Positions 51,015-56,749 of a stretch of DNA of 64,000 bases are shown one piece after another (the stretch's first letter is position 1; the number at the start of each line of letters is the position of its first letter). The position numbers and the translations under genes were made by a program. Origin of the DNA: Trypanosoma brucei (lineage: Eukaryota). The stretch spans positions 1,024,001 through 1,088,000 of the forward strand of contig CP000070.1 in assembly GCA_000002445.1 (NCBI GenBank), read 5' to 3'. The notes under the pieces were generated by a model, which had not been told where the DNA came from, did not search any database, and was given only the letters and a program-made list of their open reading frames with translations.

Positions 51015-51297
51015 CAACGATGATGGTGAGGAGGCGAAAGTGATGGTGCAGGTCGACGCGGTTACTTCATAACCGAACGCAACACATTTGTAATTTTTTT
51101 TTTTATCTCTGCTTAGTGGGTTGCAGGGTGTTTGTCGTCGATGTCCGTTCTGGCGAACTGCCATTGCATTCTCGATTCCTTGTATCATCTCATCCCTTTT
51201 CCTCCCTTTTCGTGCTTCCACTATTTATGTACAAGATAATCTTCGTTATTTCACAAGCAACATACCAAATTTAAGGAAAAATAAAAGACATTCAAAC

Positions 51298-51645
51298 ATG
51301 TCCGATATCACGTACGAGAACGGTTCACCGACATACACCGGTAACACCGTCCTTAAGTGCTTCAGAGAGAATGGCAACGGCCTCCTCTTTCGCATCGTCA
51401 ATGATGAGGAGAAGAAATGGGCATTCTACAATGATACCAAGGGCTACAACATGGTGGTGAAAGTTGCTTTCGGTAAGGACAGCACTGTTCAACCCCTTGG
51501 CAACACCAAGATGGAAAAGGACACTGCTACTGGCGAATTCAAGTGCGAACTCGAAATTGCGCCGCTGGCGACTGAAATGTTCATTGAGGGAGTGCCCAAC
51601 GGATACAAAATAAACTTTGAAGCCAATCCTATTCCTCAGTCATGA
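51298..51645 (+). CDS. small kinetoplastid calpain-related / SMP-1-like protein, tandem copy 1 (115 aa)
   Basis: Starts MSDITYENGSPTYTGNTVLKCFRENGNGLLFRIVNDEEKKWAFYNDTKGYNMVVKVAFGKD... This matches my memory of the Leishmania SMP-1 / kinetoplastid calpain domain-I family pattern (YENG...LLKCFR...LLFR...WAFYNDT...). The ORF-track entry 51121-51645 extends upstream through the 5' leader, but the Met at 51298 is the conserved start shared with copy 2. Confidence 0.6.
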   Translation: MSDITYENGSPTYTGNTVLKCFRENGNGLLFRIVNDEEKKWAFYNDTKGYNMVVKVAFGKDSTVQPLGNTKMEKDTATGEFKCELEIAPLATEMFIEGVPNGYKINFEANPIPQS

Positions 51646-52025
51646 GCAAGATGCGGTTATACATGCGAGTCCAGCAGATGATCGACAGTAGGAATGTAGT
51701 TAGCAGAAGAATTGATTCGCCCCATTTTTTTCCTTTTTCTCTCCTGGTTCTTTTGTTCTTGGGGGTTGCCGAAAAAATGCGCGACCCAAAGCACTTTATA
51801 CTGTTATATCAGAAGAGTTCCCCTCTGTATGCGGCGTTGGCGCTTCCATACGTTGCTGTCCGGCGCGTCGTGCATTTCTTTCTGGTGCCCAGTGTATTTT
51901 CGAGTTTTTGTATCATCTCATCCCTTCTCCTCCCTTTTCGTGCTTCCACTATTTATGTACAAGATAATCTTCGTTATTTCACAAGCAGCATACCAAATTT
52001 AAGGAAAAATAAAAGACATTCAAAC

Positions 52026-52388
52026 ATGTCCGATATCACGTACGAGAACGGTTCACCGACATACACCGGTAACACCGTCCTTAAGTGCTTCAGAGAGAAT
52101 GGCAACGGCCTCCTCTTTCGCATCGTCAATGATGAGGAGAAGAAATGGGCATTCTACAATGATACCAAGGACTACAACATGGTGGTGAAAGTTGCTTTCG
52201 GTAAGGACAGCACTGTTCAACCCCTTGGCAACACCAAGATGGAAAAGGACACTGCTACTGGCGAATTCAAGTGTGAGGTGAAAATCGCCCCCCTGGCGAC
52301 TGAAATGTTCATTGAGGGAGTGCCCAACGGATACAAAATAAGTTATGAAGCCGATCCTATTCCCCAGTGGAAATCCGTTCCCACCTAA
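52026..52388 (+). CDS. small kinetoplastid calpain-related / SMP-1-like protein, tandem copy 2 (120 aa)
   Basis: About 95 percent identical to copy 1 over the first ~95 codons (G->D at codon 47). It diverges at the 3' end (VKIAPL..ISYEADPIPQWKSVPT versus LEIAPL..INFEANPIPQS). The same 5' flank, about 130 nt, precedes both copies. Confidence 0.6.
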   Translation: MSDITYENGSPTYTGNTVLKCFRENGNGLLFRIVNDEEKKWAFYNDTKDYNMVVKVAFGKDSTVQPLGNTKMEKDTATGEFKCEVKIAPLATEMFIEGVPNGYKISYEADPIPQWKSVPT

Positions 52389-53239
52389 GTAAAGATATCG
52401 GGCAGTCGTGAGGAGGAAGGGAAGGGGGAAAAGAAAAGTAGTGAACACCTGTTGGTTAACTCAAGGTGAGGGGACCACATACAAAGGGAAAAGGAAATTA
52501 AGAAAGATTGTATGTTACCTTTTTTTTTTTCAAATTGTTACTCCAAATAATATGTTTATAGCCTTTTCCCTGTCATTATTTTTTTTTTGACAATTCTCTA
52601 CTTCCTTTCCTTTTCCCTTCCCCCTTGTTCTTTTTCCTCTTTTTTTTTTCCTAAATACTCGCGTGAGCGCATCACTCTCAACTAATTCGGCGAATGTTTT
52701 CTTTTTTACTTCCGGTTGATATCATTATCATTACTTATTTTAGTCTTTGTCCTTGTCCCTTTTACTTTTTGTGTGCGCATCGAACTGTAACTCAACGTTG
52801 AGCGCGAATCGAAAAAATAAAAAAAGGGGGAAGAGGAGACCACCACCACCCCCTAAAAAAAAAAAATAAACGTTAAGAAACTGGGCAAAGAGAGAGAGAG
52901 AGAAACAAACAAATATGAAGTGGAGGATAAGGGCAGCAGAATCTCACTTCTGAAGCCAATGTATGCAACGCAGTTCGGTCGTACCCTGCATTAAAAATTT
53001 TACCCATGTATTAGAGTTACATGCGCATATCTCAGAATCATGTCTTTCCACTTGTTTTGGTACTGGCCACGATTTTACGGGCGTATGTCTTTTCCTTCAC
53101 TATTTTTTTTGTTCACGTCCACACGTGTGTTCGTTTTTTCTTTACTCACGATACCGACCGGTAAGTTTTGTTGTGCCTGTGCGAGCGTTCCTACGTAGAT
53201 TTGCACATTTATCGGGTAGTGTTAGCTCTGGCGATAGCG

Positions 53240-53345
53240 GTTGCGTCGCCATGTCGAACTTAAACTATTATTATTATTATTTATTATTTTGCGCTAGTCC
53301 AAGTTTGCTTCCGCTTTTTTGTCCTTTTATTTACTTATTTGTTTA
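53240..53345 (+). promoter_or_regulatory. polypyrimidine tract / probable trans-splice acceptor region upstream of the CSB-like gene
   Basis: T/C-rich run (ttattattattatttattattttgcgctagtccaagtttgcttccgcttttttgtccttttatttacttatttgtttag) ends in AG dinucleotides 20-30 nt before the likely start Met. This is the canonical kinetoplastid SL-addition context. Confidence 0.45.
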
Positions 53346-56300
53346 GCGTCATTATCGTAGTTAAAGTGATGGCAGATGAACTCTCCCAGTTGGGTGTGAA
53401 TTGGGTAGAGGAATCTTTGCTCCGTCAAGATGTAGAGGCGAATGTGGAGGCACGAGCTGATGCCGCCGCAGCTGCGGATGAGGCTGAGCTGCAAAGGCGA
53501 TGGGCAGCACTGGAGGAGGTGGAGCGCACAGTGGCTAATATTCAAGAGCAACTTTCCAAAGTCGTTGCTCCTGTGGGCACGGCAGCTCACAAAATAGTCG
53601 AGGAGAAGGAAAGCGCTTCCGTGCTACAGTTCTCCCTGCTGAAGGCACAAAGAGAGTTGGAAAGTCGTGCGAAAGCGCTCCGCAGTTGGCAGATCGAATG
53701 CGAGGCACGCCAACGGCGGCGTGTGGAAGAGGCGAAACAGCGTAAGCAAGTGACTGAGCAGGAGGCAGTTATGGCCAGAATGCGGAATCGTTTGAGTCGT
53801 ACCCTCCAGCCGGTAGCGGACGTTCAAGGACTACAAGAGGGCGTAGGGAGTGCGGAGAGGGTTCCCGCGTCGACTAACCATCACGATTACCACGATCGCC
53901 TCACCACGGGCATGGGCTCGACACCTCAGGTGTGGTGGAATGGGAGAATAGGCACACCTAATGGAGCTGCAAGTGTGACTCACTCGAACATTTCAACGCC
54001 TTCGCGACGTCAACGCCTGTCATCGTCAACTTCTGCCGATGTGCCATTAACTCCTGCACAGTATTCCTGCGGCCCCGTTCTTCCATCAGCTTATCGAGTG
54101 ACGCTGACGCCAAGCGATGTCCGCTCCAAGTTGCAGAAATACGCAGATGACAGCGACTTAAGCATTTACAGCGCGCGGTGCCGCAAGCGGAAGCGGCTAG
54201 AAGGAGCTTTAGCGGGTCTAGCAGCGTTAGAAGCTGGAGTGGCCACTGCCAACGGCGAGATCAAGGAGGAGGATACCGATGAAGACTCGGGGGTTGTGGT
54301 GAAGTGTGAGGGTATTGGCATGAGTAGTTTCCCCAAAGTGAAGACAGAGGGTAGCGCACATGAGAAAAGTGGAACCTCATTGCTGGATGCCATAGATGTC
54401 GATGCGCTCATGGAGGAGTCTGATGATGTGGCTGTTGAAGTGCTCCAAAAAGTTAAGAAGGAAAAAAGGGCATCAGCAGGCGGTAGAAAGCACCGGGAGA
54501 GGGAAAATACCACGCAAAACTTTACGGACAGGCATGATTCCATTGAAGTCTTGCGTGGTATTTCTTTGGCATCATCCATTTATCAAAAATTGTTCGACCA
54601 CCAACGGGACGGATTGAGGTGGCTGCTGAATCTTCACCGACAGCGTGTCGGTGGGATTCTGGGAGATGACATGGGACTCGGGAAAACTATTCAAATAGCA
54701 GCCATGTTAAATGCCCTAAATCATTCCAACCAACTTCGTGGACCCTCTCTAATTGTTACACCGGTCACAGTGCTCCGTCAGTGGGTGGCAGAGATGCACC
54801 GATGGGCTCCATACGTGCGTACCTGTGTTATGCATGCCAGTAGTGCTTCCACTATTTCTCGCGAAAAGCTCATTGATTCGGTTCGAGGCACTCCAGCAGT
54901 GCTCTTAACAACCTATGCGGCCGTTCGTGAGCACTGCCGGTTGCTTCACAACGCATGTTTTCAGTATGTTATTCTTGACGAGGGGCACAAGATTAGCAAC
55001 CCGGAGGCTACTGTCACAATTGCTGCCAAGTCGTTTCCCACACCCCACCGGCTCATCCTCTCTGGAACCCCTGTGCAAAATACACTCAAGGAACTGTGGT
55101 GCCTGTTTGACTTCGTTAAACCAGGCCTACTGGGTACGTTGCGGAGGTTCGAGGAAGAGTTTGAGGTGCCAATCAACGCCAGTAAGAATATTCGGGCGTC
55201 ACCTCTCGCTTTGGCCACAGCCGCCGAGACTGCGCGGGTGCTGCACGAGAGCATCTCCCCGTTTTTACTACGTCGACTGAAGAAGCAAGTGATGAGCGAT
55301 TCTTTACCGGAGAAATACGAACGTGTTATTCGGTGCCCACTCAGTGATTCCCAATTAGAGGCGTATGTTGACCTCTTAAGTTCATCACGCGTGCAGAGGT
55401 TGATGAGTAACACCCTGTCATACACCCAGTTAATGGGTGGGTTGGACCGTGACGGGCGGGATGCAAGTGGTTGTCTGCACATCGCTGGCAAGCGGTTCCA
55501 GTTGATGCGTGATAAAGAAAACAAAGGCGTTGTTCGGCATGAGCTGTTTTGCGTGATGCACGAGTTGCGACAAATATGCAATCACGTGGATATCTTTCAC
55601 ATGCGACAAGCAAAGGACTTCAACTACACCGACGATATGGAAAACAACTTCTTTCTCGATGTTGTGAATGCCCCTACCGCCACTGCAAGGAAAGCGGGTG
55701 GAAAAGGCACGACACATTTTTCGATGCGCAGTAACAGGCCGGTAAATTATGAAGGTAGCAGTAAACTTCAAACTCTTAGACAGCTGCTGAAGTTGTGGCA
55801 ACGGGGTGGACAGCGTGCGCTGGTCTTCTCCCAGACGCGTGCCATGCTAGATATTATTGAAAATATGTGTGAACAAGAGAGCCTTACATATATCCGCATG
55901 GATGGTACCACCAATAGCTTACGACGGCAGGAACTCATGGATCGTTTCAACGAGGATGACAGAATCGTGGTGGCGCTGCTTACCACACGTGTGGGTGGCG
56001 TTGGGGTGAACTTAATTGGTGCTGACCGAGTTGTGATATTTGACCCTGACTGGAATCCGGTGACGGATGAGCAGGCGCGTGAGCGGGCGTGGCGAATTGG
56101 GCAAACACGCGATGTGGGTGTTTATCGTCTCATTTCTAGCGGAACAGTGGAGGAGGCGGTGTTGCGACGGCAACTTGCCAAGACGTATGTGACCGAGAAA
56201 GTTCTGCACGATCCAAAACTTCAACGTTTCTTCTACGAGCAAGGTAGTCTATCAGAGTCGTTCTACCTTGGCGTCGAGTATGACAGCCGGGTGCCACTAG

Positions 56301-56749
56301 GGAAGAAGCACATCGTCGCTGCACAAGAACTGTTTCCACTTTTAAAGGAAGAACACAATAATGAGGAGGTATTTGCGCTAACAGCGGTTGGGCATGAGCG
56401 GAGAATCCGAGGGACTGAGGAAGAATCAGGTGGGGCTTCTGTGAGGGCGAAGTCAGAAACAGAAAAAACTGCTGCTGCTTCCGTGTATCGGGTATGTGCT
56501 CCACGGGAGCTTTTTCCTTCTGCCACCACAACGTCACGAACATCTTCTTCCAACATATCTGAGACGTCATTGCTTCAGGATCTCGTTGACGGCAATCATG
56601 TGCGGATCTCTGGTGTTGACAGCACAGCACAGCGACTCGCGTGTACGTCAGCGTCCCATGCAATGTTGCGTGTGTCGAATGTCATCCGCACGTTCGAACA
56701 TCAGACACAAGAGGCATTTGCGAGGCTTCCCAGGGTGGAGGGATCGTAA
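53339..56749 (+). CDS. CSB: SNF2-family DNA-dependent ATPase of the ERCC6/CSB (Rad26) type
   Basis: LFDHQRDGLRWLLNLHRQRVGGILGDDMGLGKTIQ (Walker A at ~54662-54688) is near-identical in pattern to ERCC6 (LFKYQQTGVRWLWELH...GGILGDEMGLGKTIQ). Also present: DEGHKISN (DEGH box), LSGTPVQN, LLTTRVGGVGVNLIGADRVVIFDPDWNP and QARERAWRIGQTRDVGVYRLIS (motifs V and VI). An N-terminal coiled-coil/acidic region precedes the ATPase. The likely start is the Met at 53369 (MADELSQ). Confidence 0.85.
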   Translation: MFSVIIVVKVMADELSQLGVNWVEESLLRQDVEANVEARADAAAAADEAELQRRWAALEEVERTVANIQEQLSKVVAPVGTAAHKIVEEKESASVLQFSLLKAQRELESRAKALRSWQIECEARQRRRVEEAKQRKQVTEQEAVMARMRNRLSRTLQPVADVQGLQEGVGSAERVPASTNHHDYHDRLTTGMGSTPQVWWNGRIGTPNGAASVTHSNISTPSRRQRLSSSTSADVPLTPAQYSCGPVLPSAYRVTLTPSDVRSKLQKYADDSDLSIYSARCRKRKRLEGALAGLAALEAGVATANGEIKEEDTDEDSGVVVKCEGIGMSSFPKVKTEGSAHEKSGTSLLDAIDVDALMEESDDVAVEVLQKVKKEKRASAGGRKHRERENTTQNFTDRHDSIEVLRGISLASSIYQKLFDHQRDGLRWLLNLHRQRVGGILGDDMGLGKTIQIAAMLNALNHSNQLRGPSLIVTPVTVLRQWVAEMHRWAPYVRTCVMHASSASTISREKLIDSVRGTPAVLLTTYAAVREHCRLLHNACFQYVILDEGHKISNPEATVTIAAKSFPTPHRLILSGTPVQNTLKELWCLFDFVKPGLLGTLRRFEEEFEVPINASKNIRASPLALATAAETARVLHESISPFLLRRLKKQVMSDSLPEKYERVIRCPLSDSQLEAYVDLLSSSRVQRLMSNTLSYTQLMGGLDRDGRDASGCLHIAGKRFQLMRDKENKGVVRHELFCVMHELRQICNHVDIFHMRQAKDFNYTDDMENNFFLDVVNAPTATARKAGGKGTTHFSMRSNRPVNYEGSSKLQTLRQLLKLWQRGGQRALVFSQTRAMLDIIENMCEQESLTYIRMDGTTNSLRRQELMDRFNEDDRIVVALLTTRVGGVGVNLIGADRVVIFDPDWNPVTDEQARERAWRIGQTRDVGVYRLISSGTVEEAVLRRQLAKTYVTEKVLHDPKLQRFFYEQGSLSESFYLGVEYDSRVPLGKKHIVAAQELFPLLKEEHNNEEVFALTAVGHERRIRGTEEESGGASVRAKSETEKTAAASVYRVCAPRELFPSATTTSRTSSSNISETSLLQDLVDGNHVRISGVDSTAQRLACTSASHAMLRVSNVIRTFEHQTQEAFARLPRVEGS

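What the first reader, a model, noticed from the sequence alone, without database searches (positions are those of the whole stretch)
51150..52390. Tandem pair of SMP-1/SKCRP-like genes with homogenised 5' halves and divergent 3' ends; neither copy has an N-myristoylation Gly2
The two ~115-120-aa genes and about 130 nt of 5' flank are near-identical (concerted evolution or gene conversion). The last ~25 codons and the stop context differ: copy 2 gains a WKSVPT tail, and three clustered substitutions give LEIAPL/VKIAPL and INFEAN/ISYEAD. This suggests a conversion tract boundary inside the CDS, or diversifying selection on the C-terminus. In Leishmania the founding member SMP-1 is dual-acylated via MGC and targeted to the flagellar membrane. 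Here both copies begin MSDITYENG, so they should be non-acylated cytosolic versions.
Basis: partly seen in the sequence, partly recalled or inferred. Interest (0 to 1): 0.5.

Follow-up and report, generated by a model that had tools for sequence, protein, structure and literature searches.

The report
Known trypanosome SMP-3/SKCRP7 gene pair
These are two already annotated and experimentally localised Trypanosoma brucei genes (Tb927.7.4060 and Tb927.7.4070) for small, non-enzymatic "calpain-related" proteins that never carry a lipid anchor, and their front halves are kept identical by gene conversion, which is common in trypanosome tandem genes.

Summary
Two DUF1935-only genes (51298..51645, 115 aa; 52026..52388, 120 aa) lie 728 nt apart. 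They share a near-identical block of 367 nt: 118-119 nt of 5' flank plus codons 1-82. After position 51545 the copies diverge sharply, and homology ends at codon 115.

The window is T. brucei TREU927 chromosome 7. The proteins match AAZ12470.1 and AAZ12471.1 exactly, and the literature lists these genes as Tb927.7.4060/4070 (SKCRP7.x). Their Leishmania orthologues are SMP-3/SKCRP14.1, a conserved subfamily in which every member starts MS[DE]I.YENG, so the missing Gly2 is ancestral.

Gene conversion is well supported:
- dS is 0 in codons 1-82 and 0.54 in codons 83-114.
- The breakpoint has a permutation p of 2e-4.
- T. congolense has the same 114 + 120 aa pair with a similar W-tail. Thirteen sites group the paralogues by species; only sites 49 and 107 and the tail group them by orthology.
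- The tract is polymorphic among T. brucei subspecies.

Diversifying selection is not supported (dN/dS 0.13). "Cytosolic" is only partly right, because published tagging and proximity proteomics place both proteins in the cytoplasm and at the flagellum tip.

This is an ordinary, already known locus. The conversion-tract map and the age of copy 2's tail are minor new details.

The parts
51180..51297 (+). 5' flank of copy 1 inside the homogenised block. It holds a polypyrimidine tract (about 51180-51229), the first downstream AG at 51234 (predicted spliced-leader acceptor) and a predicted 5' UTR of about 62 nt.
   Evidence: Identity to 51908..52025 is shown. The splice-site assignment is inferred from the general trypanosome rule (first AG after the polypyrimidine tract) and was not measured.
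51298..51645 (+). Copy 1 CDS, 115 aa, DUF1935 only. Exact match to AAZ12470.1/XP_846029.1; the literature lists the gene as Tb927.7.4060 (presumably SKCRP7.1). It keeps the ancestral-type C-terminus ...KINFEANPIPQS.
   Evidence: T. congolense copy 1 and the single T. vivax gene end the same way. Assigning the accession to Tb927.7.4060 rests on gene order and annotation, not on a direct look-up.
51646..51907 (+). Unique spacer: copy 1's 3' UTR plus intergenic sequence. It has no homology to the region downstream of copy 2. Together with 51908..52025 it is open in copy 2's reading frame.
   Evidence: Searches show no homology. One search finds 0 stops in phase over 380 nt, with a shuffle probability of about 0.0013.
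51908..52025 (+). 5' flank of copy 2 inside the homogenised block: polypyrimidine tract, AG at 51962 and predicted 5' UTR.
52026..52388 (+). Copy 2 CDS, 120 aa, DUF1935 only. Exact match to AAZ12471.1; the literature lists the gene as Tb927.7.4070 (presumably SKCRP7.2).
51180..51545 (+). Gene-conversion (homogenised) tract, copy 1 side. The copy 2 side is 51908..52273. It covers the 5' flank plus codons 1-82.
   Evidence: There are 3 mismatches in 366 nt in TREU927. Each of DAL972 and T. equiperdum has a single private SNP. dS is 0 over 50 synonymous sites.
51546..51640 (+). Segment that escaped conversion, copy 1 side (codons 83-114). The copy 2 side is 52274..52368.
   Evidence: There are 13 mismatches in 95 nt; dS 0.54, dN 0.069. 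The same paralogue-specific differences are fixed in TREU927, DAL972 and T. equiperdum.
52368..52385 (+). Copy 2-specific C-terminal tail WKSVPT (codons 115-120). It is encoded where homology with copy 1 has ended and is predicted to be disordered.
   Evidence: T. congolense copy 2 ends in WRPGPL. Mean pLDDT of the last residue block is 64.
52389..53368 (+). Unique region downstream of copy 2: its 3' UTR plus intergenic sequence, up to the ATG of the SNF2/ERCC6-like helicase gene (53369..56749). It is much longer than copy 1's spacer and unrelated to it.
   Evidence: The 1126-aa gene models in other strains place the helicase start at 53369.

Best explanation
The locus holds the T. brucei genes Tb927.7.4060 and Tb927.7.4070 (SKCRP7.x). 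They are the tandem orthologues of Leishmania SMP-3/SKCRP14.1.

Each gene encodes a single DUF1935 (kinetoplastid calpain domain I-K) beta-sandwich of 115-120 aa. There is no protease domain and no N-terminal acylation site. The protein is therefore a soluble binding or scaffold module, not a peptidase. Published experiments find it in the cytoplasm and enriched at the flagellum tip.

The duplication is older than the T. brucei / T. congolense split. Since then, repeated gene conversion has kept the splice-acceptor region, the 5' UTR and codons 1-82 of the two copies identical within each species. The tract stops inside the CDS, after 51545. As a result, the last third of the CDS has diverged under purifying selection, together with copy 2's 6-residue tail and the two unrelated 3' UTRs.

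Inferred, not shown here: because trypanosome genes are regulated mainly through their 3' UTRs, the unrelated 3' UTRs probably let the two nearly identical proteins be expressed differently through the life cycle. SKCRP7.2 mRNA is reported to be higher in procyclic forms.
For: Identity:
- Both proteins are exact matches to T. brucei TREU927 entries on the 2.2-Mb chromosome.
- The gene IDs and their localisation are listed in PMC8141408.

Family:
- PF09149 is the only domain, at E 1e-42.

Orthology to SMP-3/SKCRP14.1:
- Identity to proteins that sources name SMP-3 is 73-77%.
- The SMP-3 epitope peptides in PMC5796078 occur in P0014.
- The gene sits upstream of the same SNF2 helicase in L. major chromosome 14, T. 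cruzi and T. vivax.
- SKCRP14.1 is LmjF14.0850 (PMC6759280).

No Gly2:
- All about 27 orthogroup members start M-[SAETF]-[DE]-I, whereas SMP-1-type hits start MGC.
- No upstream initiator gives a Gly2.

Gene conversion:
- The breakpoint test and the dS contrast of 0 versus 0.54.
- The quartet with T. congolense: 13 species-grouping sites against 2 orthology-grouping sites plus the shared tail.
- Four variants private to TREU927 copy 1, spanning -119 to +145, carry the copy 2 state in DAL972 and T. equiperdum copy 1.
- L. major and T. cruzi pairs are 100% identical only from about -100/-176 to +420, and their spacers are unrelated.
- Concerted evolution with divergent terminal copies and UTRs is documented genome-wide for T. 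brucei arrays (PMC1855330).

Expression:
- SKCRP7.2 is higher in procyclic forms and absent from the lipid-raft proteome (PMC4181241; PMC5617996).
Against: - The T. congolense comparison uses proteins only, because its DNA could not be retrieved.
- T. vivax has a single copy. The duplication is therefore either younger than that split, lost there, or collapsed in the assembly.
- G49/D49 persists as a paralogue-specific difference in the middle of an otherwise fully homogenised tract in both TREU927 and T. congolense. Simple long-tract conversion does not predict this. It needs separate tracts, selection or recurrent mutation.
- The 3' UTR-based differential regulation, the splice and poly(A) sites, and the mapping of 7.1/7.2 onto 4060/4070 are inferred, not measured here.
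- No biochemical function of DUF1935 is known.
Confidence: 0.88

Rival explanations
1. A recent T. brucei-specific duplication followed by rapid, positively selected divergence of the C-terminus (diversifying selection), with no gene conversion.
For: Five amino-acid replacements and a new tail are concentrated in the last 33 codons. Against T. vivax, copy 2 has a slightly higher dN than copy 1 in codons 83-114 (0.157 vs 0.109).
Against: - Eight of the 13 nucleotide differences in codons 83-114 are synonymous (dS 0.54, dN/dS 0.13), while dS is 0 in codons 1-82. Positive selection does not create synonymous divergence.
- T. congolense has the same 114 + 120 aa pair with D49, Y107 and a W-tail in copy 2, so the duplication is not recent.
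Confidence: 0.04
2. Independent duplications in T. brucei and T. congolense, and also in T. cruzi and Leishmania. The resemblance between the copy 2 tails is convergent. Identity within each species then reflects young age rather than conversion.
For: - T. vivax has one copy.
- T. cruzi and L. major pairs are 100% identical in the CDS, which could also mean recent duplication.
- Only 2 sites plus the tail support orthology of the copy 2 genes.
Against: - It would need convergent G49D, F107Y, loss of the stop codon, and a tail of the same length with W115, a basic residue at 116 and Pro at 119.
- A young duplicate cannot have dS 0.54 in one third of the gene and 0 in the rest.
- In L. major and T. 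cruzi the sequence just outside the identical block is unrelated, which points to old duplicates with a homogenised core.
Confidence: 0.06
3. The pair is an assembly or annotation artefact, for example a collapsed or mis-joined repeat or a single gene split in two, as the 361-aa 'LOW QUALITY PROTEIN' model in T. b. gambiense suggests.
For: - DAL972 carries one merged 361-aa gene model.
- The T. equiperdum OVI contig breaks just upstream of copy 2.
- The spacer is open in copy 2's frame.
Against: - Three independent assemblies (TREU927, DAL972, T. equiperdum IVM-t1) show the same two complete ORFs, 724-728 nt apart, each with its own stop codon and the same fixed paralogue-specific sites.
- The DAL972 DNA contains copy 1's TGA and needs a frameshift to be merged.
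- Both proteins were detected separately in proteomics.
Confidence: 0.02

Closest known systems
Leishmania SMP-3 / SKCRP14.1 (LmjF14.0850 and its tandem twin; LinJ.14.0920; LbrM.14.0820/0830)
   Same: - 73-77% identity over the full length, with a 115-aa DUF1935-only architecture.
- The MS[DE]I.YENG start without Gly2.
- A tandem pair with a homogenised CDS.
- The same position upstream of the SNF2/ERCC6-like helicase.
   Different: - In Leishmania the two copies are identical through the stop codon and about 70 nt beyond. In T. brucei and T. congolense the tract ends inside the CDS, and copy 2 has its own C-terminus and tail.
- The reported Leishmania phenotypes (modulation of drug-induced cell death, a vaccine antigen) have not been tested in T. 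brucei.
Leishmania major SMP-1 (PDB 2FE0), the founding small myristoylated protein
   Different: - SMP-1 starts MGC and is dually acylated and flagellar-membrane bound, according to the papers cited. The window proteins have no Gly2 and no N-terminal Cys.
- They are paralogues in a different orthogroup, not orthologues of SMP-1.
Other T. brucei SKCRPs and CALPs (e.g. SKCRP1.x on chromosome 1, CALP1.3, CAP5.5)
   Same: They share the kinetoplastid-specific domain I-K (DUF1935). Several localise to the flagellum or its tip.
   Different: - CALP1.3 and CAP5.5 carry acylation motifs and CysPc/CBSW domains, according to the reviews read.
- SKCRP7.x has DUF1935 only and is non-acylated.
Concerted evolution in T. 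brucei tandem arrays with divergent terminal copies and UTRs (Jackson 2007, PMC1855330; e.g. array Tb105a, phosphoglycerate kinase and hexose transporter arrays)
   Same: Gene conversion homogenises part of the repeat unit. One copy has a distinct C-terminus and unrelated UTRs and retains orthology across species.
   Different: This two-gene array is not named in the main text of that paper (one search found no mention). The tract map given here is specific to this locus.

Membership tests
SKCRP (group 3 kinetoplastid calpain-related proteins) / Pfam DUF1935 | Full-length match to the domain I-K / DUF1935 profile above the curated threshold | tested here: met
   PF09149 scores 142 and 144 bits against a cut-off of 27, covering profile positions 1-108.
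SKCRP (group 3 kinetoplastid calpain-related proteins) / Pfam DUF1935 | The protein consists only of that domain, with no CysPc or CBSW | tested here: met
   The proteins are 115 and 120 aa, and DUF1935 is the only Pfam hit at E <= 1.
SKCRP (group 3 kinetoplastid calpain-related proteins) / Pfam DUF1935 | The beta-sandwich fold of the solved members (2FE0, 1R75) | tested here: met
SMP-3 / SKCRP14.1 orthogroup | Closest relatives are SMP-3 proteins, found at the conserved locus upstream of the SNF2 helicase | tested here: met
   (source names). (synteny in T. vivax, T. cruzi and L. major chromosome 14). (SKCRP14.1 = LmjF14.0850).
SMP-3 / SKCRP14.1 orthogroup | N-terminus M-[SAT]-[DE]-I-x-[YF]-E-N-G without Gly2 or Cys3 | tested here: met
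   Alignment A2.
Dually acylated SMPs (SMP-1 type) | An N-terminal MGC... motif (Gly2 for myristate, Cys3 for palmitate) | tested here: not met
   Both copies start MSDITY, and no in-frame upstream ATG is followed by Gly. SMP-1-type hits P0035-P0038 start MGC.
Dually acylated SMPs (SMP-1 type) | Flagellar membrane or lipid-raft association | not testable with these tools
   Literature only: cytoplasm plus flagellum tip (PMC8141408), and CALP7.2 not detected in the raft proteome (PMC5617996).
Calpain (peptidase family C2), as the GenBank product name implies | A CysPc catalytic domain with the Cys-His-Asn triad | tested here: not met
   There is no CysPc hit and the protein is a single 108-residue non-catalytic domain. 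'Calpain-like cysteine peptidase' is a naming legacy.
Concerted evolution by gene conversion | Paralogues are more alike within a species than orthologues are between species | tested here: met
   Thirteen species-grouping sites (positions 2-99) against 2 orthology-grouping sites. This test used proteins only for T. congolense.
Concerted evolution by gene conversion | An abrupt, statistically supported change in divergence along the alignment, including at synonymous sites | tested here: met
   Max chi-square 37.3, reached by 4 of 20000 permutations; dS 0 versus 0.54.
Concerted evolution by gene conversion | Tract content varies among strains, showing ongoing conversion | tested here: met
   Four variants private to TREU927 copy 1 carry the copy 2 state in DAL972 and T. 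equiperdum copy 1. One of them, G49, matches T. congolense copy 1 and T. vivax.

The most novel reading that the evidence does not exclude
Copy 2 may be a functionally specialised isoform that selection protects from homogenisation. Its 6-residue W-basic-x-x-P-x tail, Y107 and D49 are shared by T. brucei and T. congolense, even though conversion has erased 13 other differences around them. The tail, or this residue set, could set partner binding or the degree of flagellum-tip targeting. The conversion boundary at codon 82/83 would then be held in place by selection rather than by chance.
Probability: 0.2. Interest if true: 0.35.

Novelty: already known. Interest (0 to 1): 0.12.

Why it matters
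It matters little beyond housekeeping. The genes are annotated, named, expression-profiled and localised, and their Leishmania orthologue SMP-3/SKCRP14.1 has been studied as a modulator of drug-induced cell death and as a vaccine antigen.

The useful results of this check are:
- The missing Gly2 is the conserved hallmark of the SMP-3 orthogroup, not a T. brucei peculiarity.
- The C-terminal differences reflect old divergence that escaped gene conversion, not positive selection.
- The identical 367-nt block means that short-read mapping, RNAi, qPCR and peptide evidence cannot separate the two genes, except through the last 33 codons and the 3' UTRs.
- The product name "calpain-like cysteine peptidase" and the merged 361-aa DAL972 gene model are both misleading.

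Tried and rejected
- T. congolense DNA. Exact-protein look-ups for P0002 and P0042 found no contig, so the quartet test is at protein level only.
- T. vivax as a nucleotide outgroup. Synonymous sites are saturated (pS 0.87-0.99), so it cannot date the duplication.
- Bacterial-type promoter and terminator scan. Counts are at shuffle expectation and the scan does not apply to a trypanosome polycistron.
- tRNA scan and Tandem Repeats Finder. Both found nothing.
- Tull et al. 2004 (PMC524726) could not be read, and Tull et al. 2012 is not held. My statements about SMP-3 in those papers are limited to what citing papers and reference lists show. My recollection that SMP-3 shows acylation-independent membrane association is therefore unverified.
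- Upstream initiator giving Gly2: rejected.
- A second possible duplicate in the window (two 320-aa ORFs at 201 and 15338): the two are unrelated.

Full report
**What is there**

The window carries two short ORFs on the + strand, 728 nt apart. Copy 1 is 51298..51645 (115 aa) and copy 2 is 52026..52388 (120 aa). A repeat search finds the same pair.

In an ungapped comparison, 51180..51545 differs from its partner at only 3 of 366 positions. The next 95 nt carry 13 differences, and homology ends at codon 115. After that point copy 1 reads S-stop and copy 2 reads WKSVPT-stop. The breakpoint after 51545 is significant: max chi-square is 37.3, reached by 4 of 20000 permutations, and Fisher p is 2e-7. 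The shared flank is 118-119 nt, the divergent part is 33 codons, and there is one replacement, G49/D49, inside the 'identical' half.

**Where it comes from**

Both proteins are exact matches to T. brucei brucei TREU927 entries on the 2.2-Mb chromosome: AAZ12470.1/XP_846029.1 and AAZ12471.1. The literature lists the genes as Tb927.7.4060 and Tb927.7.4070. All large ORFs in the window are on one strand, as expected for a trypanosome polycistron. The neighbours are a 755-aa protein with no Pfam domain and an SNF2/ERCC6-like helicase.

**Family**

There is no CysPc domain, so the product name 'calpain-like cysteine peptidase' is a legacy of the SKCRP classification. The proteins are not peptidases.

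**Which subfamily, and the Gly2 question**

The nearest relatives (65-88% identity) come from every trypanosomatid genus sampled. Several sources name them small myristoylated protein-3. All of them start M-[SAETF]-[DE]-I-x-[YF]-E-N-G. Only the more distant SMP-1-type hits start MGC.

The L. major SMP-3 pair lies on chromosome 14, upstream of the same SNF2 helicase. That locus is SKCRP14.1, LmjF14.0850. The same synteny holds in T. cruzi and T. vivax. The missing Gly2 is therefore the ancestral state of a conserved orthogroup.

No alternative in-frame initiator supplies a Gly2. Copy 1 has no upstream ATG back to the stop at 51091. Copy 2 has five, followed by S, R, R, I and R. N-myristoylation requires Gly2 (established knowledge), so neither protein can be N-myristoylated.

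**Localisation is already known**

[quoted passage not shown] 2010) and Tb927.7.4070 as 'tip plus cytoplasm'. Both were recovered in the AC1 flagellum-tip proximity proteome. SKCRP7.2 mRNA is higher in procyclic forms, and the protein was not found in the lipid-raft proteome. This fits a non-acylated protein. 'Cytosolic' is therefore only part of the picture.

**Gene conversion versus selection**

Codons 1-82 have no synonymous difference in 50 synonymous sites. Codons 83-114 have 8 synonymous and 5 non-synonymous differences (dS 0.54, dN 0.069, dN/dS 0.13). The C-terminal divergence is thus old and under purifying selection, not diversifying selection.

T. congolense has the same arrangement: adjacent accessions of 114 and 120 aa. 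Its copy 2 carries D49, Y107 and a 6-residue tail, WRPGPL. In the four-protein comparison, 13 sites (positions 2-99) group the paralogues by species. Only sites 49 and 107 plus the tail group them by orthology. This is the signature of an old duplication with partial concerted evolution.

Conversion is ongoing. TREU927 copy 1 has four private variants between -119 and +145, including the ancestral-type G49. All four carry the copy 2 state in copy 1 of T. b. gambiense DAL972 and of T. equiperdum. The differences from +248 onward are fixed in all three strains.

In L. major and T. cruzi, the tandem copies are 100% identical only from about -100/-176 to +420, and their spacers are unrelated. A homogenised core with free flanks is thus the general state of this locus. 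Jackson (2007) documents the same behaviour across T. brucei tandem arrays, including terminal copies with their own C-terminus and UTRs.

**How it most likely works**

Shown:
- Two nearly identical, non-acylated DUF1935 proteins.
- A shared splice-acceptor region and 5' UTR.
- Unrelated 3' flanks, of about 260 nt (to the next polypyrimidine tract) and about 980 nt (to the helicase ATG).

Inferred:
- The first AG after each polypyrimidine tract (51234 and 51962) is the spliced-leader acceptor.
- The different 3' UTRs give stage-specific expression.
- The domain acts as a protein- or membrane-binding module at the flagellum tip and in the cytoplasm.

The role of copy 2's disordered tail (pLDDT 64) is unknown.

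**Open points**

- G49/D49 persists inside the homogenised tract in two species.
- The 380-nt spacer is open in copy 2's frame (0 stops; shuffle probability about 0.0013). This explains the merged 361-aa 'LOW QUALITY PROTEIN' model in DAL972, although both ORFs and copy 1's stop codon are intact there.
- T. vivax has a single copy.

**Verdict**

This is a correct observation of an already known locus. The gene-conversion reading is right and the selection alternative is wrong. The acylation inference is right but not new, and the localisation inference is incomplete. Interest is low.

Noticed in passing
window 51646-52025 (with upstream limit 51618): The whole spacer between the two genes is an open reading frame in phase with copy 2, giving a 248-aa ORF at 51642..52388 with five in-frame ATGs. 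The other two frames have 5 and 3 stops. Only about 0.13% of mononucleotide shuffles are open in that phase. DAL972 differs by indels totalling 3 nt, which keep the frame. The translation looks like polypyrimidine-tract read-through (hydrophobic, F/L/S-rich). No evidence for an extended isoform was found.
   Followed up: partly
L005 3001-4088 (T. b. gambiense DAL972, FN554970.1): The RefSeq/GenBank model CBH12536.1 / XP_011774816.1 (361 aa, 'LOW QUALITY PROTEIN') merges the two SKCRP7 genes into one. The DNA holds both intact ORFs, and copy 1's TGA is present, so this is an annotation artefact.
   Followed up: yes
window 51443 (codon 49) and T. congolense P0002/P0042: G49 (copy 1) versus D49 (copy 2) is the only coding difference inside the homogenised tract of TREU927. 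The same paralogue-specific difference exists in T. congolense, yet it is erased (D in both copies) in DAL972 and T. equiperdum. This could be selection against conversion at this site, short separate tracts, or recurrent mutation.
   Followed up: partly
L002 1-383 (T. equiperdum OVI, CZPT02001500.1): The contig starts 20 nt upstream of copy 2's ATG, inside the duplicated block. The short-read assembly broke at the repeat.
   Followed up: no
(T. melophagium cluster P0007/P0047): In T. melophagium one SMP-3-type sequence carries at least four accession numbers and there is a second variant. This suggests a larger array of this gene in that species.
   Followed up: no
window 51227-51274 and 51955-52002: An out-of-frame ATG sits in each duplicated 5' flank (51227 and 51955). 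It lies just upstream of the predicted splice-acceptor AG, so it would probably be removed from the mature mRNA. If a more upstream acceptor were used, it would form a short upstream ORF.
   Followed up: no
window 52490-52870: The region downstream of copy 2 contains several long T runs and polypyrimidine tracts, a poly(A) run and a (GA)n stretch near 52890. These are typical trypanosome intergenic and 3' UTR low-complexity sequence.
   Followed up: no
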